From Escherichia phage IrisVonRoten, in the sequence record MZ501075: 64,000 nucleotides of DNA. One strand, 5' to 3'. The notes below the pieces were generated by a model, which did no database searches, had not been told where the DNA came from, and saw nothing but the letters and a program-made list of their open reading frames with translations. This document shows, one piece after another, positions 7,628-36,697 of this stretch (positions are counted from its first letter, which is position 1; each line of letters opens with the position of its first letter). A program made the translations under genes and the position numbers.

Positions 7628-8395
7628 TTATTCAGCAGCCGCAGCTTTTGCATCCAGTTTAGCACGCTTAGCGGCACCATCATAGTCCTTAGCAACCAGA
7701 CCACGACGAGACAGCATAGATTTAACACCGCGCTCAGACTTACCAGTTTTCTCAGCGATCTCAGCAACAGTCATGTTAGCCAGATCCAGACCTTCTAAAA
7801 GATCTTCACGAGTTTTAGCACTTGAAGTTTCCTGTACCGGCATAGCAGCGATACGACCTTCACGAAGCAGACTCAGAGCTTTACCACGGATCTGCTTGAT
7901 ATTACGACCGAAGTGAGCAGCGATAGCTTCAATAGTAGCTCCAGCAACAACCTGATTAACAAAGTCAGTTTCTTCATCCGGAGTGAAGGAACGAACAGCA
8001 GCAGCTTTTTCGGTCGGCTTAACAGATGCGGTCATTTCCAGACTCAAGATTTTACCCTGTACCTGCTTAGCACCGAACTGACCACCAGCTACAGCAGCAG
8101 CGATTTCAGCATAAGTATACTGACCAGCATGAGCGTTCAGGAAATCAACCAGTTCAGCTTCCTGCTCAGGAGTCCATGGGGATTTCTGTACTTCGTTAGC
8201 TTTCTGTACTTCGAAACCTTCTTTACGCAGCTTAGAGCCAACAGAGCGAGCGGTAACGTCTTTGCCAGTTTCAGCAGCCAGTTCAGCAGCGATAGCAGCT
8301 ACTTGTTCTTGAGAGATTACAGCAACACCCAGAGCAGTGGCTTTTGCTTTCAGAGACTCGGTTACACCTTCTACGTTCCAGTTCAGTTTAGACAT
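7628..8395 (-). CDS. hypothetical Ala-rich protein, possible DNA-binding
   Basis: 255-aa ORF with phage-typical codon usage; function not recognisable. Confidence 0.55.
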   Translation of the reverse strand: MSKLNWNVEGVTESLKAKATALGVAVISQEQVAAIAAELAAETGKDVTARSVGSKLRKEGFEVQKANEVQKSPWTPEQEAELVDFLNAHAGQYTYAEIAAAVAGGQFGAKQVQGKILSLEMTASVKPTEKAAAVRSFTPDEETDFVNQVVAGATIEAIAAHFGRNIKQIRGKALSLLREGRIAAMPVQETSSAKTREDLLEGLDLANMTVAEIAEKTGKSERGVKSMLSRRGLVAKDYDGAAKRAKLDAKAAAAE

Positions 8396-9170
8396 TATTA
8401 TTTTTCTCCAATAGTTCTTTAATCGACAGGATTTCTATCCCATTCGTTTCGGCTTTCTTATAAGATGAGGAAGAACGCTTCGATTCATCCTCACAGATTA
8501 GGTATTTGACGTCTTTGGTAACGGATTTCTTAACCGTATATCCTAGACCTTCTAAATAGTTTGTTGCATCCGTTCTATTTGCAAAATCTTGCAAAGATCC
8601 GGTAATACATACCGTTATTCCGTTTGGTTGGGCTACTAGACCATCAGTGATGATGACCTCAGCTTTAGCACCTTTAATACCAGTTGTGAATTTCCACGGT
8701 AATTCGATAACATCCTTGCCTTGTGGGGAATTTAGCCAGGCTTTATAATTTTCTCCAGCTCTGCCATCAGCTCTCACATCTTGAAAACTGGTGCAATTTT
8801 GGGACAATTTCTTTGCTGCAACCTCTCCGATTAGAGGGATTCCTAAAGAACCGAGAACTGAACCAAAGTCAATGTCTCCGCGAACTTTATTATTTAATTC
8901 GCTAATTAACTTAGCGGCAACCTTGCTACCCACGACTCTAACCAAATCTTCTTCGGTTAGGTAAAATAGTTCTGAAATCTTCGTCAGCTCCAGCTTCTCA
9001 ATAGTTTTTGGGCCAAAGCCCTTTAACTTCATTTTTGTACAGAAGTTCTCAATTAACTTACTTGATTGCGCTGGACAGTTGGACTTATTACGACAGAATA
9101 ATTGTCCGTTGACAAGATCTAGTTTAGAACCACAAGAGGGACATTGTGTTGGAATTTCGATTTTCATCAA
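8388..9170 (-). CDS. NAD-dependent DNA ligase, C-terminal subunit (Zn finger/HhH region)
   Basis: CPSCGS...C...C zinc finger; lies directly after adenylation-domain ORF with a promoter between them. Confidence 0.65.
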   Translation of the reverse strand: MMKIEIPTQCPSCGSKLDLVNGQLFCRNKSNCPAQSSKLIENFCTKMKLKGFGPKTIEKLELTKISELFYLTEEDLVRVVGSKVAAKLISELNNKVRGDIDFGSVLGSLGIPLIGEVAAKKLSQNCTSFQDVRADGRAGENYKAWLNSPQGKDVIELPWKFTTGIKGAKAEVIITDGLVAQPNGITVCITGSLQDFANRTDATNYLEGLGYTVKKSVTKDVKYLICEDESKRSSSSYKKAETNGIEILSIKELLEKNNNV

Positions 9171-9197
9171 ATTTCTTCCTTATCAATTTATATAAAT

Positions 9198-9226
9198 ATT
9201 ATAGCAAGTATTTAAGCATTTAGCAA
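9198..9226 (-). promoter_or_regulatory. T5-type early promoter between the two ligase ORFs
   Basis: Reverse strand TTGCTA, 17-bp spacer, TATAAT. Confidence 0.6.
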
Positions 9227-9369
9227 CTACAATTTTAACTAACTTTGCTTACCCTCGCCATAACTTTCTATCCCTCAACTGAATGATAATAGTATATACC
9301 TAAGCGGCGAAAATGTCAATAACCACTTTATAATTCCGATATGGTAGATGGGTAGCAAAGGGTTGTGTA

Positions 9370-10344
9370 TTAATCGTATACTCGCTCTACTATGCACGGG
9401 ATTACACCACCAGCACGAATCACTCGAATCTGGCAACCGATCTCTAGATCAAGAGAGTTAATATAATCAACGTTATTAAGAGTCGCTTTAACAATTGTAG
9501 CATCATCAATAATTACCGGTTCGAAATAACCAACTGGAGTTACTTTACCAGAAGCCCCTACCTGCCATTCAACTTTAGTAAGAGTTGTAATCTCGCCTTC
9601 TTCATCCTCTTTAATAGCGAATGCTCCACGAGGGAATTTATTAGTCCAGCCTTCGCGGAAGAATTTGTTGTTGTCATTAATACGAACAACTTTACCGTCC
9701 GTTGGAATCCATTTAAAGAAGGAACGCACATTAACAACTGTTAAGAAGTTCTCATTCTCTAGCCAAAGCATATCTTTTAAATATGCTTCTGTAATACCCA
9801 CAGATTCAGCAGAACATTGGATACCATAAGCAACAAAGATTAAACCACCTTCCCCAATACGTTGTACGAAATCATCGCTATCTTTGAGGTTAATAGCACC
9901 AGAGGCAAAGTTACGTTTATTTTCTACTTCTTTTGTAATTAGAACTTCACCAGTGATTTGAGTAGGTACTTTTTGGGAAATCTTTTTAGGAATGTTCAGC
10001 AATCTTACGTTGCTTGTGACATCATTCCCCAGAATACCATTACCACGAGTTAGTGCTTGAACAAATTCACCGTTAATATATAACAGAGAAATTGCACAAC
10101 CATCTAACTTATCGGTTTCCACCTGACCTAAAGGATTGAAGGGTGGTTTATCACCACGGTTATAGTAAACTTTCTGTAAAGAATACATACGATATAGATG
10201 TGGAATATCACCCTTAGGCCCGATCTCTTCCTCTAACGGGAAGCGTTTTACCAGGCAATCATACTCCTCATCAGAGATTAAAGACATGCCTTGATAATAT
10301 GCTTCTTGACAACGCTTAATAAAGCCTTTTACATTATTCATCAT
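9370..10344 (-). CDS. NAD-dependent DNA ligase, adenylation-domain subunit
   Basis: KLDG adenylation motif (KxDG), OB-fold region. Confidence 0.75.
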   Translation of the reverse strand: MMNNVKGFIKRCQEAYYQGMSLISDEEYDCLVKRFPLEEEIGPKGDIPHLYRMYSLQKVYYNRGDKPPFNPLGQVETDKLDGCAISLLYINGEFVQALTRGNGILGNDVTSNVRLLNIPKKISQKVPTQITGEVLITKEVENKRNFASGAINLKDSDDFVQRIGEGGLIFVAYGIQCSAESVGITEAYLKDMLWLENENFLTVVNVRSFFKWIPTDGKVVRINDNNKFFREGWTNKFPRGAFAIKEDEEGEITTLTKVEWQVGASGKVTPVGYFEPVIIDDATIVKATLNNVDYINSLDLEIGCQIRVIRAGGVIPCIVERVYD

Positions 10345-16921: not shown

Positions 16922-16950
16922 AGAGAAAACCGAGCCAAAATGACTCGGTT
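16922..16950 (-). terminator. rho-independent terminator (minus strand)
   Basis: AACCGAG...CTCGGTT hairpin followed by TTTTCTCTG on reverse strand. Confidence 0.55.
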
Positions 16951-16957
16951 ATACGGA

Positions 16958-17152
16958 TTAATCATAAAAAAGACCACGAATAGTATTAGCAAATTTAAGT
17001 ATAATAGCGCGGTTTGAGCTACTTAACTTTTTAATATCGAAAGTGGGATCAGTCAAATATCTCGCCATAAATTTTACTTGTTTAGCGGAAAGTTGACCCT
17101 TATTCCACTTTTTAATTTTACCATAACATACCCAATATTCTTTATTCATCAT
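16958..17152 (-). CDS. hypothetical small protein
   Basis: 64-aa ORF. Confidence 0.4.
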   Translation of the reverse strand: MMNKEYWVCYGKIKKWNKGQLSAKQVKFMARYLTDPTFDIKKLSSSNRAIILKFANTIRGLFYD

Positions 17153-17534
17153 TTAGTCCCGGAACATAGATTCCAACACGATTTAATTGTTCTTTAGCTT
17201 CTTTGAGAATACCTGGAGTGTACTCCCAAATATCATCTTCCACCTGTAAAAGATGGGGCGAACAACCGTCACCAGGCACACGACATATGGCCAAACCACG
17301 TGGATGGAACAAAGAGAAATTTAGTGCAACAATTAAACCCATAGCAGACAATTCATTCCAATCCAATTCCCATTCCCTAGCGTAGCCTGATAGGAAAACA
17401 CCAACACAGGGATCATCTATTTGCTGCTCTGGAAAAGTGAAGGAGGCTTGTCTTACCCCCAACCAACGTTGTAGCAGCTTCTCCGCACGCTTCACCAAAC
17501 TAGGATCAATCTGACGCCAATATACTTGTTTCAT
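17142..17534 (-). CDS. hypothetical protein, paralogue of 17543-17971
   Basis: Shares G..E..L.EMGL..ALN..LF.P and C-terminal ..VPGL motifs with the adjacent ORF. Confidence 0.55.
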   Translation of the reverse strand: MKQVYWRQIDPSLVKRAEKLLQRWLGVRQASFTFPEQQIDDPCVGVFLSGYAREWELDWNELSAMGLIVALNFSLFHPRGLAICRVPGDGCSPHLLQVEDDIWEYTPGILKEAKEQLNRVGIYVPGLNDE

Positions 17535-17542
17535 TGTGCCCC

Positions 17543-17971
17543 TTAGGCAGTTAAACCCGGAATTTGATAACCAAAACGACGAAGTTTTTGGATACCATCA
17601 TTTACTTCTTCCGGTGAGTAAGACCAACCGTAATGTTCATTAATTTGAAAGCCTGGAGATTCACTGGTTTTATAATTAACAACAATACGGTGTTTATTGG
17701 GCATAAATAGCTTATAGTTTAATGCAAAAACCAAGCCCATTTCATCTAACTCTTTCCAGCCGACAATCTCTTCAAGACCATCCTCTACCTGCACAATTAA
17801 ACCAATACAGGGAGCTTCTTCAATCTCACCTTTAAAAGCAAAGGAGATTTCATTATTCTCACACCATATTTTCAGAGCATTAATAGCCTCATTGTACAGG
17901 TTGTCTGGAAGAGTACGCCAAAAATTAACCAATATTGGGTTAGCTTCTTTAGAGAATACATTATTGAACAT
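17543..17971 (-). CDS. hypothetical protein, paralogue of 17142-17534
   Basis: Tandem duplicate of neighbouring ORF. Confidence 0.55.
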   Translation of the reverse strand: MFNNVFSKEANPILVNFWRTLPDNLYNEAINALKIWCENNEISFAFKGEIEEAPCIGLIVQVEDGLEEIVGWKELDEMGLVFALNYKLFMPNKHRIVVNYKTSESPGFQINEHYGWSYSPEEVNDGIQKLRRFGYQIPGLTA

Positions 17972-17973
17972 AT

Positions 17974-18480
17974 TTACACCTTAAATTGTTGTAGGGCTTT
18001 ACACATTTCAAGATCTGGACTAAATTCTAACATATAGCTAACAGCTTTTAAATCTTGAAGATTTATTCCAGTTCTACCGTTGACTATAACCGTTGGATAC
18101 TGGTACATCATAGCACCAGCGTCATCCAGCACACACCAATGTTTGAGCTTATGCTTTTCAACAAAGCGAAGAACAGAATTACCCCTAGATAGCCCACCAC
18201 CAGTAAAATCCGTTGTACCAAGAAAACGATCGATAAGATCTAATCCGGTCATAATCTGAACGTTCTCCATCTCATTCCTAACAGAGAACCATGAAGATAC
18301 CCCAACAATCATTATTGGAGAAGGACTAATAAAGTCCTGAAAAGCCTTGAGAAGCGGTTTAAAAACCCAGTCACTTCCAAAGAAAATCTTTTCATCATCA
18401 GGTGCATGGTGATGGGAGATGCTCGAGTTGAGCACCCCATCAATATCTAGAAAAATAATTGGAGTATTACTTATTTCCAT
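17974..18480 (-). CDS. HAD-superfamily phosphatase
   Basis: N-terminal FLDIDGVL (DxDG motif I). Confidence 0.6.
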   Translation of the reverse strand: MEISNTPIIFLDIDGVLNSSISHHHAPDDEKIFFGSDWVFKPLLKAFQDFISPSPIMIVGVSSWFSVRNEMENVQIMTGLDLIDRFLGTTDFTGGGLSRGNSVLRFVEKHKLKHWCVLDDAGAMMYQYPTVIVNGRTGINLQDLKAVSYMLEFSPDLEMCKALQQFKV

Positions 18481-18649
18481 TTTTGTTCCTTTCTAAGAAC
18501 GTATCATACTCAACTGTATCAACATATATGACACCATAGTCATCGGATTTATAGTCCATTTCCCATAGCTCACATCGATAGCACCAACTACCATCCGCCC
18601 ATACAAATATATCATCGGGATGTGTATATACAGATTTAACTATGGACAT
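18467..18649 (-). CDS. hypothetical small protein
   Basis: 60-aa ORF. Confidence 0.35.
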   Translation of the reverse strand: MSIVKSVYTHPDDIFVWADGSWCYRCELWEMDYKSDDYGVIYVDTVEYDTFLERNKNGNK

Positions 18650-19464
18650 ATCTGTTTCCCCGGCATATAAGGTCTACCCTCTAGATGAGCTTCCACACGA
18701 GCAATAAAACCAGGGTCACTGAAAGCATCTACCGCACCTTTACTCCAGTAAGGAATACCACGATCTTCCAGTTGGTACATATCACTACGAGTCATACCTT
18801 GATAGCCTGGTTCCGCCGCTAAGGCACTATCGTAGTAGTTAACTACCATAAGTTTCGCAGCAGTCCGATTAAGAACAGGGAATAATTCCCAGTAGAAGTT
18901 AATTACTTGGTTAGAGCAACCAACCACCACAATCATATCTTGACTGGTAATACCATCAAAAACATTGTACATCTCAGCGTATGCTGGAGCACACTCCCCA
19001 AAGAAGATTACATTAGGTTTAACCCATTTATAATCATCAGGGTCAATAGAGCTATACCCAACATCAATAACTCGTTTATTACTACTATTGTAGCTATCAG
19101 CTACAACAACCTCTTTTAAATACCCGTGAATGTGCAGAATGTCACTATGTGGAACGCCAGCACGCTCAATAAGGTCATCAACGTTGGTAGTTAAGTTTAC
19201 TACTTGACCCGGATATTTCTTATACCATTCACCAATACGCAGGTGTGCAAGATTGGGCTCAACAGTTTCTAACTCTTCACGACGTTTGTTGTAAAACATG
19301 TGGGTTTTATGATAAAAGTTACCACGAAAGGCATGAATATTACATACCTCTTCTAAGTCATAATCATCCCACAATGCTTTACCACTAGCAGTATCAGTAC
19401 GAAAAGCTCGTACACCACTTTCAACACTCAAACCCGCACCGCTAATAATAATTAATCTACGCAC
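18640..19464 (-). CDS. Sir2-family (sirtuin-like) NAD-dependent protein
   Basis: GAGLSVESGVRAFR, TTNVDDL and IHG motifs match the sirtuin core. Confidence 0.65.
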   Translation of the reverse strand: MRRLIIISGAGLSVESGVRAFRTDTASGKALWDDYDLEEVCNIHAFRGNFYHKTHMFYNKRREELETVEPNLAHLRIGEWYKKYPGQVVNLTTNVDDLIERAGVPHSDILHIHGYLKEVVVADSYNSSNKRVIDVGYSSIDPDDYKWVKPNVIFFGECAPAYAEMYNVFDGITSQDMIVVVGCSNQVINFYWELFPVLNRTAAKLMVVNYYDSALAAEPGYQGMTRSDMYQLEDRGIPYWSKGAVDAFSDPGFIARVEAHLEGRPYMPGKQICP

Positions 19465-19658
19465 TATACGATTCCTTGCTTAAATCCTTCGATAATATTT
19501 CGGAGTAAAATTGCTTCCTCCGGGCGTACCTTTTCTTGTTTAATAAGCATATCCAATCTAGCAATACAAGTAGCTACACCAGCATTATAACCAAAGTTCC
19601 ACTGCTCAATAAGCATGTTTTCTGGATTACTTTTTAGATTCTGATTCAAGAAGTCCAT
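19464..19658 (-). CDS. hypothetical small protein
   Basis: 64-aa ORF. Confidence 0.4.
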   Translation of the reverse strand: MDFLNQNLKSNPENMLIEQWNFGYNAGVATCIARLDMLIKQEKVRPEEAILLRNIIEGFKQGIV

Positions 19659-19830
19659 AAAGTTTCTCCTCTAGTTCCATAACACGATTTTCATAAGAAG
19701 CACGCAACTTTTCAATTGCCAGTGCACGCACTGTAACCTCATTAGAATTAATAGCTAGTTGGGCCAGATCTTCTGTTTCCATACGTCCGTTGTAAATTAA
19801 GCGATATTTAAGATGTTTTACGTTTTTCAT
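19627..19830 (-). CDS. hypothetical small protein
   Basis: 67-aa ORF. Confidence 0.4.
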   Translation of the reverse strand: MKNVKHLKYRLIYNGRMETEDLAQLAINSNEVTVRALAIEKLRASYENRVMELEEKLYGLLESESKK

Positions 19831-19895
19831 TCTTGTTCCTCAAACATTTCAATTTCTGCATTAGCAATAGAAAGGGCGGGCTCAGATAAGCACAA

Positions 19896-20039
19896 TCACG
19901 CCCTAAGATCAATCTTCTCTTCGTCCATCCAAGTATTTACTAAACATAATTTAGTTATACCCTCACGGAGAATGGAACCATATGCCCCAGAATCCATAAT
20001 AAAATAGATACGTTCTTTATCTACCTTGTGAACTCTCAT
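19896..20039 (-). CDS. hypothetical small protein (47 aa)
   Basis: ATG preceded by GAGGAG SD within a T5-type promoter leader; below ORF-track size cutoff. Confidence 0.4.
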   Translation of the reverse strand: MRVHKVDKERIYFIMDSGAYGSILREGITKLCLVNTWMDEEKIDLRA

Positions 20040-20138
20040 ATCTTTCTCCTCTCAAATTTATAAATCTATTATATATAAATTTTTGGCTGAAAGCAAATAA
20101 AATAAAAGCCAGGTCGACTAGCAACCCGGCTGATTAGC

Positions 20139-22013
20139 TTATTTAGCTCGAATATCCTGATGTTTCACCCTGCCCATAACCTCGTGCTGTTTGCCGGGGT
20201 TAAATGGACGAGCACCTGGATTTCCAAGATACCCACAAACTCGACGAGTTACTTCAAGAGTTTCGGGGTCATGATTACCACAGATAGGGCACTTAAACCC
20301 ATCTTCGGATGCTACTGTTTCACCTAAGAATCCACATTTACCGCAAGAATCCACTGGAGTATTAATACCGAAGTAATGAACTTTACTAGCAGCATAATTA
20401 ATAACCCATTCCAGTGCATCTGGGAATCGTTTCATATCTGGTAGTTCTACATAGGAAATACACCCACCAGAAGCAATAGGAGTAAAGTTAGATTCATAAT
20501 CAAATTTCACGTTAGGAGCAACTTTACGTTCCACATCAAGGTGGTGAGAGTTGGTGTAGTATCCTTTGGACAGAATATCTTCATGCTCCGGGAAATATTC
20601 ACGGTCTAGACGACAAAAGCGATCACATAGGGACTCTGATGGTGTAGCATACAGGCTATAACCTAACTTAGTCTCTTCCTTCTTCTGATCGACCCTATCC
20701 CGCATGTACTGCAATACACGCTGAACAAACTTGATGCAGGTCTCAGACATTGTATCTACATCTTTGCCAAACATGAACTGTAGCATTTCATGGCAACCAA
20801 TATACCCCAGAGATACAGAAGCACGGTTATAGAAATGATCGAATACATATTCATCCGGCCCTAAGCGTAGTCCAAAGGCTCCTGACATATAGAGGATGGG
20901 TGCGGCTTTAGCTTGAATGTACTTTAAGCGATCAACTCTCCACTCCAATGCTTTTAACGCTGTATCCACACGTAGCTCGAGCAAATCAAAGAATAGATCA
21001 ATATTCCCTTCAGCTTCGATAGCAATTCTAGGCAGGTTTACAGAAACAACACCTAAGTTATTACGACCTGCAGTTTCACCATCTTCTGTAGCAGCCAGGA
21101 ATGAACGGCAGCCCATAGAAACTTTATAGTCACCAGTAACTTCCACAACCTTATCGTAGCTGATATAGTCGGGATACATACGTTCAGCAGTACATTTCAT
21201 AGCTAACTTCTTGACGTCATAATTAACATCTCCTGGCTTCATATTTACGCCATCACGCAGAACAAACACCAGTTTCGGGAAGATAGCTGTACGTTTATTG
21301 ATACCTAAACCATCCATGCGTACTTTCAGTATTGCTTTCTGTACTAGACGTGCTTCCCAAGAAGTTCCTAGACCAAAACCAAAGGTAATAAATGGACTCT
21401 GACCATTAGAGTTGAACATGGTATTGATTTCATATTCTAAACCCTGACAAGCGTCATAGACTTCTTTTTCAGTCATCTCCGTAGCCATTACGGATGCTTT
21501 GGCTTCATCCTTAGTCCAACGTTTTGCAAACGCATGATTTTTGTCATAGGATTTACGAACATAAGGGGCTAATACTTCATCAAGGCGATCTACAGAAGTA
21601 CCACCATACTGATGGGAGCTAACCTGAGTGATAATCTGAGCAGTAATAGCCGCCGCAGTAGTGATAGAGTTTGGAGTGCTAATTTCAGCATTACCAACCT
21701 TCATACCATTCTTCAACATATCTTCCAAAGCTACCAGACAACAGTTAGTCATACCTAATGCAGCATAATCAGCATCATGGAAATGAATATCTCCAATCAT
21801 ATGAGCATTTCGAATCTGAATTGGCATTTCTTCTAGAATCAGATATTTACTTAACTCCCCTGCAAGCATATCCCTTTGTGTAGGGAAACGCTCAGAGGGT
21901 TTATTCGCATTATTAAAGAGAAGCTCTTCATCAGCAGAACCCTCAATAATTTCTTTGCAGTTTCTAATCAAGGACTGCATTTCCTTGTATTTTAGTTCAT
22001 CATTGCGATTCAT
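20139..22013 (-). CDS. nrdD: anaerobic ribonucleoside-triphosphate reductase (class III)
   Basis: C-terminal glycyl-radical motif RVCGYLG and Cys-rich zinc ribbon. Confidence 0.9.
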   Translation of the reverse strand: MNRNDELKYKEMQSLIRNCKEIIEGSADEELLFNNANKPSERFPTQRDMLAGELSKYLILEEMPIQIRNAHMIGDIHFHDADYAALGMTNCCLVALEDMLKNGMKVGNAEISTPNSITTAAAITAQIITQVSSHQYGGTSVDRLDEVLAPYVRKSYDKNHAFAKRWTKDEAKASVMATEMTEKEVYDACQGLEYEINTMFNSNGQSPFITFGFGLGTSWEARLVQKAILKVRMDGLGINKRTAIFPKLVFVLRDGVNMKPGDVNYDVKKLAMKCTAERMYPDYISYDKVVEVTGDYKVSMGCRSFLAATEDGETAGRNNLGVVSVNLPRIAIEAEGNIDLFFDLLELRVDTALKALEWRVDRLKYIQAKAAPILYMSGAFGLRLGPDEYVFDHFYNRASVSLGYIGCHEMLQFMFGKDVDTMSETCIKFVQRVLQYMRDRVDQKKEETKLGYSLYATPSESLCDRFCRLDREYFPEHEDILSKGYYTNSHHLDVERKVAPNVKFDYESNFTPIASGGCISYVELPDMKRFPDALEWVINYAASKVHYFGINTPVDSCGKCGFLGETVASEDGFKCPICGNHDPETLEVTRRVCGYLGNPGARPFNPGKQHEVMGRVKHQDIRAK

Positions 22014-31262: not shown

Positions 31263-31964
31263 ATGAAAGTAAAACCATTTGGTATGCTAGATATTGAATC
31301 TCTAGGAACTCCAGGAGATTGTGGTACTACTCATATCGCAATGCCTTCTTTCGCTTTTGTGGCTATGCACGGAATTGATAAAGACCCTGATCTAGTGTTT
31401 GTTACTTTGGATGTACAAGATCAGCTTAACTCTGGAGCTAAAGTTACGGCATCTACTCTAGCATTCTGGATGGATCAAGCTAAGAATAGCCCATCAGCTC
31501 TACATATTATGGAAGCTATGAAGGAATGCAATCCAAAGCTGATTGCTTTTCAAGATGGTAAACATCACTGTACTAATAAGCTAGGCTCTAACTATGCAGC
31601 TTATTCTATGGCTAAAAACATTATGGAGTTGGCTCTAGGTGAGAATGCTTTGTATTATGGCAATGGCCCAGAGTTTGATATGACTATCTACTCTGCAAAC
31701 ACTTTCCATGCTGGAACCAATGAAGAAATAGTTCCGTGGAAATTCTGGAACTTAGGCAATGTTCGATCTCTCCGCAATCTCTGGATGCAGGCTGGTTATA
31801 GTTACAAAGACCTAGAAGCAGAGGGAATTAGCTGGGCAAAAGCTAAGATGGAGAAGATGGACACTATTCGTTATGGGATCTATCCGGTTAAGCATGATCC
31901 AGCATTCGATGCCTTAGTTGAGAGCTATTGTGTTGCAGCTATGGTCGAAAAAATCAAAATTTGA
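31263..31964 (+). CDS. DEDDh-family 3'-5' exonuclease (DnaQ-like)
   Basis: Exo I MLDIESLG and Exo III HDPAFDA motifs. Confidence 0.6.
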   Translation: MKVKPFGMLDIESLGTPGDCGTTHIAMPSFAFVAMHGIDKDPDLVFVTLDVQDQLNSGAKVTASTLAFWMDQAKNSPSALHIMEAMKECNPKLIAFQDGKHHCTNKLGSNYAAYSMAKNIMELALGENALYYGNGPEFDMTIYSANTFHAGTNEEIVPWKFWNLGNVRSLRNLWMQAGYSYKDLEAEGISWAKAKMEKMDTIRYGIYPVKHDPAFDALVESYCVAAMVEKIKI

Positions 31965-34361: not shown

Positions 34362-34805
34362 ATGGAAGAGAATATTTTAGATGTTTTGCGTAGAGCTTTG
34401 CAGGATTCTAAGTTTAATGGTTCTGATAAAGAAGTCGCTAAAAGCTACCAGACCATAATCGGGGATCTTCAGCGTATTGATAAAGATTTCATCACTTCTG
34501 AACAATTTGTGTCTTATCTCAAAGCTCAACTAAAAAGCATTAACCAGATGAAAGCTAAACTTCATGGTCAAGATCTTGATAGTTATAGCTTGCAGTCCGC
34601 TCAGTATGAATACATTCTAAATAAGTGGTTGCAGGAGTATCTGCCTCCTCAGTTATCTGATACTGAGATTCGTAAATACTTTGCAGAATTAGTTAAGCTA
34701 AACCCTGGAATTACAAAAGGTATGCTGATGAAAGCGATTAAGGAAGAATTTCCTGGGCGTTATGATGGTGGTACTGCTGCTCAGATTGCTGGCGAATTTA
34801 ATTAA
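34362..34805 (+). CDS. GatB/YqeY-domain protein
   Basis: C-terminal NPGITKGMLMKAIKEEFPGRYDG pattern. Confidence 0.6.
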   Translation: MEENILDVLRRALQDSKFNGSDKEVAKSYQTIIGDLQRIDKDFITSEQFVSYLKAQLKSINQMKAKLHGQDLDSYSLQSAQYEYILNKWLQEYLPPQLSDTEIRKYFAELVKLNPGITKGMLMKAIKEEFPGRYDGGTAAQIAGEFN

Positions 34806-35749: not shown

Positions 35750-36697
35750 ATGTCTAATACTAAAAATATGAAAGAACTGACTTCTGAGCAAAAAGTAATT
35801 CGCACTATTAAACGTTGGAGTATTGGTGCTGTAGTTGGTTTAGCAGGTTTAATCCTAGCTTTTAATTCATATACTATTGTTTCTGATGGTACGGTTAAAA
35901 CCCAAACATTTCTAGGTAAAGTAGATCCTAACCCAGTATTACCTGGTTTCCATCTTGTAAACCCATTTGCATCTTTCGATACTTTTAGTACAAAAGATAT
36001 TGCTGTAAAATTAGATAAACTTCAGGTTCCTAGCCAGGATAAGTTTAAATCCACTGTTGACCTGACTGTTATGTTGCAGTTTGATGGTTCTAAGGCACCG
36101 ATCAACCGTATTAATGCGGGTACTCAAGATCAGGCTCTAGATAAGTATGTAACTGAAAAATTACTGTCTACTATTCGTGAGTTTGGTAAGTCTGTACCTA
36201 AAGCACAAGATTTGTTTGATGCTAAAATTCAAGCACAATTGCAAACTGCAATTCAACAGGAAGTTGAAGAGTATGCACGCCCCTATGGTTACACAGTTAA
36301 GCAAGTGTTCCTTCAGGATATTACATTGCCACCGGTAATTATGGAACAGGTACAGAATACCAAAGTTCGCGAAGAACAAGTTAATGCTGCGAAAGCTGAA
36401 TTAGCTCGCGTTGAACAAGAAGCACAGCAGAAGGTTAAACAAGCAGAAGCAGATCGTGAAGCTCGTAACAACCAAGCTATTGCAAACGAACGTGATGCAG
36501 ATGCTAAACTGTATGCAGCTAAGAAAGAAGCTGAAGCTAACGCTGCTCTGCAACGTACCATTACTCCTGAGATGATTCGCTGGAAGCAACTAGAAGTTGA
36601 AATGATTCGTGCTCAGAAGTATCAAGGTGGTGTACCGCAGACTGTGGTTGGCACTGGTTATGATGGCCAGATGATTATGGATATGCGTAACAAGTAA
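35750..36697 (+). CDS. SPFH/band-7 (prohibitin/HflKC-like) membrane protein
   Basis: N-terminal TM helix, SPFH-like core, Ala/Gln-rich coiled-coil C-terminus. Confidence 0.7.
   Translation: MSNTKNMKELTSEQKVIRTIKRWSIGAVVGLAGLILAFNSYTIVSDGTVKTQTFLGKVDPNPVLPGFHLVNPFASFDTFSTKDIAVKLDKLQVPSQDKFKSTVDLTVMLQFDGSKAPINRINAGTQDQALDKYVTEKLLSTIREFGKSVPKAQDLFDAKIQAQLQTAIQQEVEEYARPYGYTVKQVFLQDITLPPVIMEQVQNTKVREEQVNAAKAELARVEQEAQQKVKQAEADREARNNQAIANERDADAKLYAAKKEAEANAALQRTITPEMIRWKQLEVEMIRAQKYQGGVPQTVVGTGYDGQMIMDMRNK

What the first reader, a model, noticed from the sequence alone, without database searches (positions are those of the whole stretch)
16958..19464. Sir2-like protein clustered with a HAD phosphatase and two tandem paralogues
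A sirtuin-like ORF (GAGLS...FR, TTNVD, HG motifs) lies next to a HAD phosphatase (DIDGVL) and two adjacent paralogous 130-142-aa proteins of unknown function. SIR2 domains are NAD-consuming effectors in bacterial immunity, so a phage-encoded Sir2 with a phosphatase hints at manipulation of host NAD or ADP-ribose pools.
Basis: partly seen in the sequence, partly recalled or inferred. Interest (0 to 1): 0.5.

Follow-up and report, generated by a model that had tools for sequence, protein, structure and literature searches.

The report
T5 phage sirtuin–phosphatase early operon
This is the long-annotated Sir2-like gene of T5-type phages with its neighbouring HAD phosphatase and two small paralogous proteins. 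A 2022 comparative study already proposed the pairing as an NAD-dependent RNA-repair module, and nobody has tested it biochemically.

Summary
On the minus strand of a T5-like (Tequintavirus) window lie an intact sirtuin (18640-19464), a 60-aa ORF, a HAD phosphatase (17974-18480), two DUF7415 paralogues (31% identical) and a 64-aa ORF. All are tightly packed between two terminator-like hairpins.

These are T5 genes T5.102-T5.107, annotated since 2004. Iyer et al. 2022 (PMC9503650) described the sirtuin plus "Swiss-army-knife" HAD neighbourhood, using the T5-like phage SP15 as prototype. They predicted that the sirtuin removes RNA 2'-phosphates with NAD+, as KptA does.

My tests show:
- The sirtuin is CobB-like, not a defence-type NADase. 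It has no zinc site and keeps the class-III YxxR pair.
- Its 58-62% identical relatives sit in RNA ligase–cREC–kinase operons.
- The HAD has all four catalytic motifs and a capless MDP-1-like fold.
- HAD and Sir2 stay adjacent in both gene orders across T5-like lineages.
- In one group of rV5-like phages the HAD instead sits beside the NAD+-rebuilding genes Adps and Namat.
- DUF7415 is a phage-only fold with no demonstrable link to Sir2.

Function remains untested. Best reading: an NAD+-dependent RNA-end or ADP-ribose-phosphate processing module (confidence about 0.4). Novelty is low.

The parts
20107..20131 (-). Terminator-like hairpin after nrdD; upstream boundary of the unit
   Evidence: Pattern scan. 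The T5 record annotates a terminator and a promoter at the equivalent position.
19627..19830 (-). 67-aa ORF, homologue of T5.101 (phrog_5236), function unknown
   Evidence: 92% identical to the T5 ORF.
19464..19658 (-). 64-aa ORF (phrog_5827), function unknown
   Evidence: 91% identical ORF in Epseptimavirus S132.
18640..19464 (-). Zinc-less, class-III-like sirtuin (T5.102 family), 274 aa
   Evidence: PF02146 E=3.8e-24. phrog_2162 E=4.5e-120. Best solved structure is E. coli CobB 1s5p, E=9e-18. GAG, F21/R22, Y58/R61, N94, H113 and the FGE motif are invariant or nearly invariant in the phage clade.
18467..18649 (-). 60-aa acidic ORF (T5.104, phrog_5116) overlapping both neighbours
   Evidence: It also follows Sir2 in Epseptimavirus and in Sugarlandvirus, which lacks the HAD. 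pI 4.35.
17974..18480 (-). Capless HAD-superfamily phosphatase (T5.105; HAD_SAK_2), 168 aa
17543..17971 (-). DUF7415 paralogue A (T5.106), 142 aa
   Evidence: PF24187 E=1e-32, two matched stretches. Paralogy shown.
17142..17534 (-). DUF7415 paralogue B (T5.107), 130 aa
16958..17152 (-). 64-aa basic ORF (phrog_29527), last gene of the unit
   Evidence: Identical in phage ESCO40, not annotated in T5. pI 10.0.
16928..16950 (-). Terminator-like hairpin; downstream boundary of the unit
   Evidence: Pattern scan. T5 annotates a rho-independent terminator after T5.107.

Best explanation
The block is the T5.101–T5.107 part of an early operon of a T5-like phage.

The Sir2 belongs to a phage-restricted, single-domain sirtuin clade without a zinc site, derived from CobB-like (class III) sirtuins. 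I think it most likely uses NAD+ to transfer ADP-ribose onto an anionic, phosphate-bearing acceptor. The published proposal is the 2'-phosphate of broken or re-ligated RNA, as the unrelated enzyme Tpt1/KptA does. That reaction releases nicotinamide and ADP-ribose 1''-2'' cyclic phosphate.

The neighbouring Mg-dependent capless HAD phosphatase then removes a phosphate in the same pathway. Its substrate would be either an RNA end or the ADP-ribose-phosphate by-product, the job done by Poa1 in yeast and by Adpp in phage NARP1-AP operons.

The two DUF7415 proteins and the small ORFs are co-transcribed passengers. Any role as accessory factors is unproven.

Shown: gene content, intact catalytic motifs, predicted folds, conserved adjacency, and the contexts of the orthologues. 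Inferred: the acceptor, the products, and any coupling between the two enzymes.
For: 1. The window is a Tequintavirus and the genes are T5.102-T5.107.
2. Catalytic and NAD-binding residues are intact and conserved across 12 divergent phage sirtuins. The Tyr-x-x-Arg pair, which in SIRT5 and CobB binds an acidic group, is kept: Y58 is invariant and R61 is present in at least 90% of sequences.
3. Orthologues 58-62% identical lie inside operons of RNA_lig_T4_1, cREC cyclic-phosphate domain, AAA_33 kinase, SIR2 and DNA ligase. This is the ligase + kinase + cyclic phosphodiesterase set of fungal/plant tRNA ligase, with the sirtuin where Tpt1 would act. A jumbo-phage member is followed by a Nudt16-like Nudix.
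4. HAD and Sir2 stay neighbours in five T5-like lineages in two opposite orders.
5. The HAD has all four motifs and a capless fold.
6. A HAD homologue is adjacent to Adps and Namat. NARP1 operons are known to recruit an ADPR-1''-phosphate phosphatase (bioRxiv 10.64898/2026.01.28.702374), and ADPR-PP decays to ADPR cyclic phosphate (10.1101/2024.02.11.579819).
7. The same hypothesis was reached independently by Iyer et al. 2022 (PMC9503650).
8. From established mechanism: sirtuins and Tpt1 both proceed by attack of an oxygen nucleophile on C1'' of NAD+, followed by attack of the 2''-OH to give a 1'',2''-cyclic species.
Against: - No biochemical or genetic test was found in the literature searched.
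- The 64-kb window has no homologue of the RNA ligase, cREC, kinase, Adps or Namat that give the other contexts their meaning (tblastn). The T5 record stretches I read (12000-63000, about 51 kb of 121.75 kb) annotate no RNA ligase or polynucleotide kinase. The T5 version would therefore be an incomplete pathway that depends on host enzymes.
- All phage sirtuins examined are acidic (pI 4.8-5.9), which is unusual for an RNA-binding enzyme.
- The hydrophobic residues that line the acyl-lysine tunnel (F21, V95, V152, F154/F155) are retained, so ordinary deacylation is not excluded.
- The Sir2–HAD adjacency is confined to one phage family, and the HAD–NARP1 adjacency to one small lineage (3 records). 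Sugarlandvirus keeps Sir2 without the HAD.
Confidence: 0.4

Rival explanations
1. Ordinary protein deacylase. The phage sirtuin works like CobB or SIRT5, removing acetyl or acidic acyl (succinyl, malonyl) groups from lysines of host or phage proteins to retune metabolism or replication. The HAD would be an unrelated neighbour, or a protein phosphatase, and the gene order merely inherited synteny.
For: - The best sequence relatives are CobB, Sir2Af1/2, Sir2Tm and SIRT5. NCBIfam deacylase models match at E=7e-29.
- The YxxR desuccinylase signature, the catalytic His, the FGE loop and the hydrophobic tunnel residues are conserved.
- The top structural neighbours of the HAD include protein phosphatases.
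- T5-like genomes are highly syntenic, and Sir2 occurs in about 1000 phage records against about 500 for the HAD.
- This is the reading given for the Vibrio-phage homologue in PMC5107563.
Against: - Scores are far below every curated CobB cut-off (100 bits against 221-395).
- The zinc module that shapes the peptide cleft is missing, and the Gln of the TQN motif is replaced throughout the clade.
- It does not explain why orthologues are embedded in RNA ligase–cREC–kinase operons, or why HAD and Sir2 remain adjacent after inversion of their order.
Confidence: 0.25
2. NAD/ADP-ribose counter-defence. The HAD is a non-Macro analogue of the ADPR-1''-phosphate phosphatase Adpp. The sirtuin acts on NAD+ or on NAD-derived small molecules. 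Together they would neutralise products or signals of NAD-targeting defences (aRES, Thoeris, SIR2-type NADases), or protect the phage's NAD+-dependent DNA ligase.
For: - A HAD homologue lies immediately upstream of Adps and Namat in ChuuTotoro and in contig L019.
- T5-like phages depend on NAD+: an NAD-dependent ligase is encoded at 8388-10344 in this window. Some T5-like phages carry the NadR/PnuC NARP3 pathway (PMC13464706).
- MDP-1, the closest fold, acts on sugar phosphates (my own knowledge).
Against: - A sirtuin consumes NAD+, which is counter-productive for a phage that needs it.
- The window has no Adps or Namat with which to use ADPR.
- No anti-defence phenotype is reported.
- The HAD–NARP1 adjacency is seen in only three phage records plus metagenomic relatives.
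- In Vequintavirinae the NARP1 genes and the RNA-repair cluster lie a few kb apart anyway, so that adjacency may be incidental.
Confidence: 0.15
3. No functional unit. The genes are independent early 'moron-like' genes that share an operon only through vertical inheritance in Demerecviridae, each with its own unrelated role. DUF7415, for example, could be a protein-binding module tied to nucleotide metabolism.
For: - Small-ORF content varies between close relatives. T5.100 and T5.103 are absent here, and the 64-aa ORF is not annotated in T5.
- The Sir2 allele is only 51% identical between Tequintavirus and Epseptimavirus, while the HAD is 90% identical.
- DUF7415 occurs between nrdD and nrdG in Jiaodavirus, and is fused to MazZ-like pyrophosphohydrolase or thymidylate kinase elsewhere.
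Against: The Sir2–HAD pair persists through rearrangement and through loss of DUF7415 and nrdD.
Confidence: 0.2

Closest known systems
Phage sirtuin clade with 'Swiss-army-knife-like' HAD neighbourhood (Iyer, Burroughs, Anantharaman & Aravind 2022, Viruses 14:1977; prototype Escherichia phage SP15, a T5-like phage)
   Same: Same genes, same family of phages, same adjacency. This window is simply another member.
   Different: Nothing substantive differs. Here I add: the inverted HAD→Sir2 order in KEY-like phages, the HAD–NARP1 adjacency, the conserved YxxR pair, the capless fold of the HAD, and the lack of linkage for DUF7415.
E. coli CobB / human SIRT5 (class III sirtuins, protein lysine deacylases)
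   Same: Rossmann fold signature GAGxS, FR, N-x-D, catalytic His, FGE, and the Tyr-x-x-Arg pair. About 30% identity to CobB, E=9e-18.
   Different: No Cys4 zinc module. The Gln of TQN is replaced by Thr, Ala or Ser. Scores are well below the curated equivalog cut-offs. The clade is phage-restricted, acidic, and found in RNA-repair-type neighbourhoods.
Tpt1/KptA RNA 2'-phosphotransferase with Cpd1 and Poa1 (tRNA-splicing by-product pathway)
   Same: Proposed to work alike: NAD+-dependent removal of an RNA 2'-phosphate, then a cyclic phosphodiesterase and a phosphatase acting on ADPR>P and ADPR-1''P. In rV5-like phages the sirtuin sits with ligase, kinase and cREC, as Tpt1 acts after Trl1.
   Different: Unrelated fold. 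Pfam finds only SIR2, with no PTS_2-RNA domain. The activity has never been shown for any sirtuin. The T5-like version lacks ligase, kinase and cyclic phosphodiesterase.
NARP1-AP (Adps + Namat + Macro-domain phosphatase Adpp; Osterman et al. 2026 preprint)
   Same: A phage phosphatase genetically attached to NAD+/ADPR enzymes. A HAD homologue occupies a comparable place next to Adps and Namat in ChuuTotoro-like phages.
   Different: Adpp is a Macro domain, not a HAD. This window has neither Adps nor Namat. No activity data exist for the HAD.
Defence-associated SIR2 NADases (ThsA, DSR1/2, SIR2-HerA, SIR2-pAgo)
   Same: SIR2 superfamily; NAD+ is the substrate.
   Different: No match to any PADLOC model at E<=0.01. 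Single-domain protein with no sensor or partner domain. Encoded by a lytic phage in an early operon.
MDP-1 / SCP1-type capless (C0) HAD phosphatases and the phosphatase domain of T4 Pnkp
   Same: DxDGV motif I, Ser motif II, basic motif III, DD motif IV. Core Rossmannoid fold without a cap domain.

Membership tests
SIR2 superfamily (Pfam PF02146) | Profile match above the curated gathering score | tested here: met
   86 bits against a cut-off of 24, covering profile positions 1-178 of 180.
SIR2 superfamily (Pfam PF02146) | NAD-binding GAGxS and FR motifs, N-x-D motif and catalytic His | tested here: met
   G9-A10-G11, S13, F21-R22, N94, D96 and H113 align to the CobB residues and are invariant or nearly invariant in the clade. 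The Gln before N94 is Thr.
SIR2 superfamily (Pfam PF02146) | Cys4 zinc-binding module in the small domain | tested here: not met
   Only four Cys (C41, C158, C183, C273) and no CxxC pairs. The CobB 'CHCC' region aligns to a Cys-free segment.
CobB / class III protein deacylases | Tyr-x-x-Arg acidic-acyl binding pair | tested here: met
   Y58-N-K-R61 aligns with the CobB sequence FYNARR. Y58 is invariant and R61 is present in at least 90% of phage sequences.
CobB / class III protein deacylases | Score above the NCBIfam equivalog or subfamily cut-off | tested here: not met
   Best score is 100.6 bits against a cut-off of 243. The other models score 43-90 bits against cut-offs of 221-395.
CobB / class III protein deacylases | NAD+-dependent deacylation of lysine | not testable with these tools
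   Needs an enzyme assay.
Defence-type SIR2 NADases (ThsA, DSR, SIR2-HerA, pAgo-associated) | Match to a defence-system SIR2 model | tested here: not met
   No PADLOC family at E<=0.01.
Defence-type SIR2 NADases (ThsA, DSR, SIR2-HerA, pAgo-associated) | Fused or adjacent sensor or partner (SLOG, HerA, pAgo, large C-terminal domain) | tested here: not met
   Single-domain, 274 aa. The 120 relatives listed (of 213 hits) are single-domain proteins of 240-292 aa. Neighbours are the HAD, DUF7415 and small ORFs.
Phage 'RNA-repair' sirtuin clade of Iyer et al. 2022 | Close similarity to the sirtuins of rV5-like, Mydo-like and jumbo phages | tested here: met
   58-62% identity to the rV5 and KNP2 proteins, about 38% to the Asteriusvirus protein.
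Phage 'RNA-repair' sirtuin clade of Iyer et al. 2022 | Conserved neighbourhood with an RNA-end or cyclic-phosphate processing enzyme (HAD_SAK, cREC, 2H, ligase, kinase) | tested here: met
   HAD_SAK_2 lies two genes downstream. The pair is conserved in T5, S132, My1 and KEY-like contigs.
Phage 'RNA-repair' sirtuin clade of Iyer et al. 2022 | KptA-like 2'-phosphotransferase activity | not testable with these tools
   A prediction only. No experimental paper was found.
Tpt1/KptA family | PTS_2-RNA (ART-like) fold | tested here: not met
   Pfam reports only SIR2 for this protein. Any resemblance is functional, not homology.
HAD superfamily phosphatases | Four catalytic motifs (DxD; S/T; K/R; DD) | tested here: met
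   D12, D14, S62/S63, R99 and D119/D120 are invariant in 14-17 homologues down to 32% identity.
HAD superfamily phosphatases | Rossmannoid HAD fold | tested here: met
HAD_SAK_2 (PF18143) | Profile match above the gathering score | tested here: met
   73.9 bits against a cut-off of 27.5, covering profile positions 1-138 of 139.
HAD_SAK_2 (PF18143) | Activity on RNA terminal phosphates | not testable with these tools
   The family name rests on a computational prediction. The source paper (Burroughs & Aravind 2016) is not in the held library.
Adpp (NARP1-AP ADPR-1''P phosphatase) | Macro domain | tested here: not met
   No Macro domain in any of the block's proteins. Only a positional analogy exists, through the HAD homologue next to Adps and Namat.
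DUF7415 (PF24187) | Profile match above the gathering score | tested here: met
   112.6 and 106.8 bits against a cut-off of 27, two stretches each.

The most novel reading that the evidence does not exclude
The zinc-less phage sirtuin may be the first sirtuin whose natural acceptor is a phosphate rather than an acyl-lysine. The acceptor could be an RNA 2'-phosphate, an RNA or DNA terminal phosphate, or inorganic phosphate. The T5.105-family HAD would then be a non-Macro ADP-ribose-phosphate phosphatase. The pair would form a compact phage module that both repairs nuclease-damaged (t)RNA and recycles the ADPR-phosphate it produces. The HAD alone would be reusable beside NARP1 to defeat aRES-type NAD+ phosphorolysis.
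Probability: 0.2. Interest if true: 0.75.

Novelty: already known. Interest (0 to 1): 0.35.

Why it matters
More than 1000 phage genome records carry this sirtuin, including the model phage T5, and its activity has never been measured. If it really is a Tpt1-like phosphotransferase, that would be a new reaction class for sirtuins and a new branch of phage RNA repair. If the HAD is an ADPR-phosphate phosphatase, it would extend the current NAD+ arms race (NARP1/2/3, aRES/Adpp) to T5-like phages.

As a scan finding it adds little. The genes have been annotated for two decades, and the specific sirtuin–HAD neighbourhood and its mechanistic hypothesis were published in 2022.

Tried and rejected
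- **Defence-type SIR2 NADase:** rejected. No PADLOC hit and a single-domain protein.
- **'Sir2' label on the HAD gene** in RefSeq phage records: it traces to phrog_18062, which matches the C-terminal half of the HAD at 2.4e-58 but is named Sir2. This is a mis-annotation.
- **Internal duplication of DUF7415:** inconclusive. Pfam reports two stretches per protein. hhalign of the N- against the C-half gave only 17% probability. An HMM built from single-domain homologues hits only the C-terminal half.
- **Sequence search of the PDB** with the HAD and with DUF7415 gave nothing useful.
- **DUF7415 fusion proteins** (MazZ-like, thymidylate kinase, ClpX zinc finger) could not be found full-length in isolated phages. 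They remain weak evidence.
- **Profile search for sirtuin domain fusions:** none among the 120 relatives listed.
- **Unavailable resources:** the AFDB50 fold library was not available, and the Burroughs & Aravind 2016 paper that defines the SAK HAD family is not held.
- **Literature:** no experimental work on a phage sirtuin was found.
- **tblastn of the window** with RNA ligase, cREC, kinase, metallophosphoesterase, Nudix, Adps and Namat from the other sirtuin and HAD contexts gave no hits.
Full report
**What is there**

The window is a T5-like phage. The 2.6-kb region is 100% identical to a fragment of Salmonella phage S.Inf 5-2 and about 95% identical to phage T5. In T5 the same genes are T5.102 (putative Sir2-like protein), T5.104, T5.105, T5.106 and T5.107.

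All coding is on the minus strand, in agreement with the negative GC skew of the first 22 kb. The ORFs are:
- Sir2, 18640-19464, 274 aa.
- 60-aa ORF, 18467-18649.
- HAD, 17974-18480, 168 aa.
- DUF7415 paralogue A, 17543-17971, 142 aa.
- DUF7415 paralogue B, 17142-17534, 130 aa.
- 64-aa ORF, 16958-17152.

Neighbouring ORFs overlap or are separated by only a few bases. Terminator-like hairpins at 20131-20107 (just after nrdD) and 16950-16928 bracket the unit. The T5 record annotates a promoter and terminators at the matching places. Plus-strand ORFs in the interval are short and have no family matches, so I treat them as chance ORFs.

The paralogy also holds (31% identity, E=2e-18).

**The sirtuin**

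Pfam SIR2 matches over its whole length (E=3.8e-24). The closest solved structures are E. coli CobB (E=9e-18), archaeal Sir2Af1/2, Thermotoga Sir2 and human SIRT5. NCBIfam deacylase models match at E=7e-29 but far below their curated cut-offs (100 bits against 221-395).

No model of a defence-system SIR2 in PADLOC matches.

I aligned phage homologues from T5-like, Epseptimavirus, rV5-like, KNP2, phi92, My1, Sugarlandvirus, Vibrio and jumbo phages with CobB. The alignment shows:
- Invariant G9-A10-G11, S16, G17, F21-R22, N94, H113-G114 and the FGE loop.
- A conserved Tyr58-x-x-Arg61 pair. From my own knowledge of these families, this is the feature of class III sirtuins that binds the carboxylate of succinyl- or malonyl-lysine.
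- Replacement of the canonical Gln of 'TQN' by Thr, Ala or Ser in every phage member.
- No zinc-binding cysteines.

A profile search of 5.8 billion proteins returned 213 relatives. The 120 listed are all single-domain proteins of 240-292 aa, and the long contigs among them are of phage-genome size (about 110-155 kb). No fusions were seen. All the phage sirtuins I examined are acidic, with pI 4.8-5.9.

**The phosphatase**

The protein matches HAD_SAK_2 (PF18143, E=2.1e-20). In homologues down to 32% identity the four HAD motifs are invariant: D12 and D14; S62/S63; R99 within a GGGxSRG loop; D119/D120.

It is thus a competent phosphatase with an open active site, the type that usually acts on macromolecules or bulky phospho-sugars.

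**The paralogues**

An exhaustive HMMER search found 149 representatives. Most are 60-110-aa proteins that match only the C-terminal half. A few are fused to a MazZ-like dATP/dGTP pyrophosphohydrolase, a thymidylate kinase or a ClpX-type zinc finger. In Klebsiella Jiaodavirus a single-domain copy lies between nrdD and nrdG.

DUF7415 is absent from several Sir2–HAD loci and from the rV5, phi92 and Vibrio Sir2 loci. I find no evidence that it works with Sir2. The 'exonuclease' and 'tail tube' labels in some records are unsupported.

**Context elsewhere**

The sirtuin is present in about 1000 phage records, the HAD in about 500 and DUF7415 in about 860.

*T5-like phages.* The Sir2–HAD pair is kept in T5, Epseptimavirus S132, Yersinia phiR2-01 and Pectobacterium My1. 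In Erwinia phage KEY and three related metagenomic contigs the order is reversed: HAD, a small ORF, then Sir2. Those loci have no DUF7415, and in phage KEY and two of the contigs no nrdD lies beside the pair. Klebsiella Sugarlandvirus keeps Sir2 and two DUF7415 genes but has no HAD.

*rV5-like phages (Vequintavirinae).* A sirtuin 58-62% identical to this one is embedded in an operon of RNA ligase (RNA_lig_T4_1), cREC cyclic-phosphate domain, AAA_33 kinase, SIR2 and ATP-dependent DNA ligase, with a calcineurin-like phosphoesterase nearby.

*Jumbo phages.* In a jumbo Asteriusvirus the sirtuin is followed by a Nudt16-like Nudix.

*HAD with NAD+-rebuilding genes.* In Serratia phage ChuuTotoro (Vequintavirinae) and a related contig, a 38-42%-identical HAD lies just upstream of a PRPP-synthetase-like gene and an NAPRTase-family gene. 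In the contig one small ORF lies between the HAD and those genes. The pair has the domain composition of Adps and Namat of NAD+ reconstitution pathway 1. That arrangement is rare: only three phage records cover it.

**What is already published**

[quoted passage not shown] On their proposal the associated enzymes either resolve cyclic phosphates or process the ADPr>P by-product.

I found no experimental follow-up. The finding is thus already known as a computational prediction, and the gene itself has been annotated since the T5 genome was deposited.

**How it most likely works**

I favour the published reading, with one refinement.

The rV5-type operon reproduces the ligase + kinase + cyclic phosphodiesterase composition of fungal/plant tRNA ligase. 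Its product needs an NAD+-dependent 2'-phosphotransferase (established knowledge of the Trl1/Tpt1 pathway). The sirtuin is the only NAD+-using enzyme present in that operon. At about 60% identity the T5-type protein should share its activity.

Sirtuin chemistry proceeds by attack of an oxygen nucleophile on C1'' of NAD+, then attack of the 2''-OH to give a 1'',2''-cyclic intermediate. This parallels Tpt1 chemistry. The conserved Tyr/Arg pair could hold a phosphate instead of a carboxylate. Both points are inferences.

The refinement concerns the HAD. Its appearance next to Adps and Namat matters for two reasons. Recent work shows that NARP1 operons recruit an ADPR-1''-phosphate phosphatase, the Macro-domain Adpp (bioRxiv 10.64898/2026.01.28.702374). 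And ADPR-PP decays to ADPR cyclic phosphate. Together these make an ADP-ribose-phosphate substrate at least as likely as an RNA end.

Weaknesses are real:
- The window has no ligase, kinase, cREC, Adps or Namat.
- The T5 record stretches I read (12000-63000) annotate no RNA ligase or polynucleotide kinase.
- The proteins are acidic.
- The acyl-lysine tunnel residues are retained.
- The adjacency evidence comes from few independent lineages.

I therefore put this explanation at about 0.4. The rivals are an ordinary CobB-like deacylase at about 0.25, an NAD/ADPR counter-defence role at about 0.15, and 'no functional unit' at about 0.2.

NAD+ chemistry coupled to a phosphatase is plausible. The analogy with immune SIR2 NADases does not hold, the better-supported reading is RNA repair, and the paralogues are not demonstrably part of it.

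Novelty: already known. Interest is modest (0.35), and rests on the fact that a very widespread phage enzyme remains biochemically uncharacterised in a currently active field.

Noticed in passing
window 17974-18480 (HAD) and RefSeq phage records listed: Many RefSeq T5-like records label the HAD gene 'Sir2 (NAD-dependent deacetylase)', giving 'Sir2 (x2)'. The label traces to phrog_18062. That family matches the C-terminal half of the HAD at 2.4e-58, but matches only 48 residues of the real Sir2 at 1.7e-06. This looks like a propagated mis-annotation.
   Followed up: partly
L017:6001-9217 (Serratia phage ChuuTotoro) and L019:6001-9519: A HAD_SAK_2 homologue (38-42% identical to the window's HAD) lies immediately upstream of a PRPP-synthetase-like gene and an NAPRTase-family gene, which have the domain composition of the NARP1 enzymes Adps and Namat. 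The HAD may be a non-Macro counterpart of the recently described ADPR-1P phosphatase Adpp. Only three phage records share this arrangement.
   Followed up: partly
window 18640-19464 compared with L016 (Epseptimavirus S132): Between Tequintavirus and Epseptimavirus the HAD is 90% identical and the DUF7415 genes 71-72%, but Sir2 is only 51% identical. That is less than its identity to the rV5-like sirtuins (58-62%). Epseptimavirus, phi92 and Sugarlandvirus share an insertion of about 27 aa. The Sir2 allele seems to have been exchanged horizontally between phage families.
   Followed up: partly
window 18467-18649: The 60-aa acidic ORF (phrog_5116, pI 4.35) overlaps the stop of Sir2 and the start of the HAD. 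It also follows Sir2 in Epseptimavirus and in Sugarlandvirus, where the HAD is missing and the ORF is not annotated. It could be a partner or regulator of the sirtuin.
   Followed up: partly
window 16958-17152; about 19830-20139; L001 (T5): Small ORFs vary within the operon. The basic 64-aa ORF (phrog_29527) is present here and in ESCO40 but is not annotated in T5. T5.103 and T5.100 have no counterpart in the window. A T5.100-like protein sits between the HAD and Sir2 in KEY-like phages.
   Followed up: partly
window 9370-10344 and 8388-9170 (minus strand): An NAD+-dependent DNA ligase is split into two ORFs: adenylation + OB domains, and HhH + BRCT domains. The phage therefore needs NAD+ for replication while also encoding an NAD+-consuming sirtuin 9 kb away.
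   Followed up: no
L012:2995-3213 (Klebsiella phage KP179); P0163, P0164, P0121, P0141: The DUF7415 core domain (consensus WNELSxxGLIxRINxEILHPxGLA...DDGxWEY) occurs as a 72-aa protein between nrdD and nrdG in a T4-like phage. It is also fused to MazZ-like dATP/dGTP pyrophosphohydrolase, thymidylate kinase or a ClpX zinc finger in metagenomic proteins. This hints at a link to nucleotide metabolism rather than to Sir2.
   Followed up: partly
L013:2992-3249 (Klebsiella phage Roth27): An 85-aa DUF7415 protein is annotated 'anti-CBASS protein acb1'. It matches my HMM of single-domain DUF7415 proteins at 1e-29 and, from my own knowledge, is far shorter than Acb1. Probably a mis-annotation.
   Followed up: no
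L027:1-5786: The metagenome-assembled contig carries the RNA ligase–cREC–kinase–SIR2 block twice in inverted orientation, with one RNA ligase copy truncated. This is probably an assembly artefact rather than biology.
   Followed up: no
window 31263-31964, 34362-34805, 35750-36697: Other early-region ORFs with RNA- or membrane-related domains: an Rv2179c-like 3'-5' exoribonuclease domain, a YqeY-like domain below the Pfam cut-off, and a Band_7/SPFH protein. A Band_7 protein also lies a few kb downstream of the sirtuin operon in L027.
   Followed up: no
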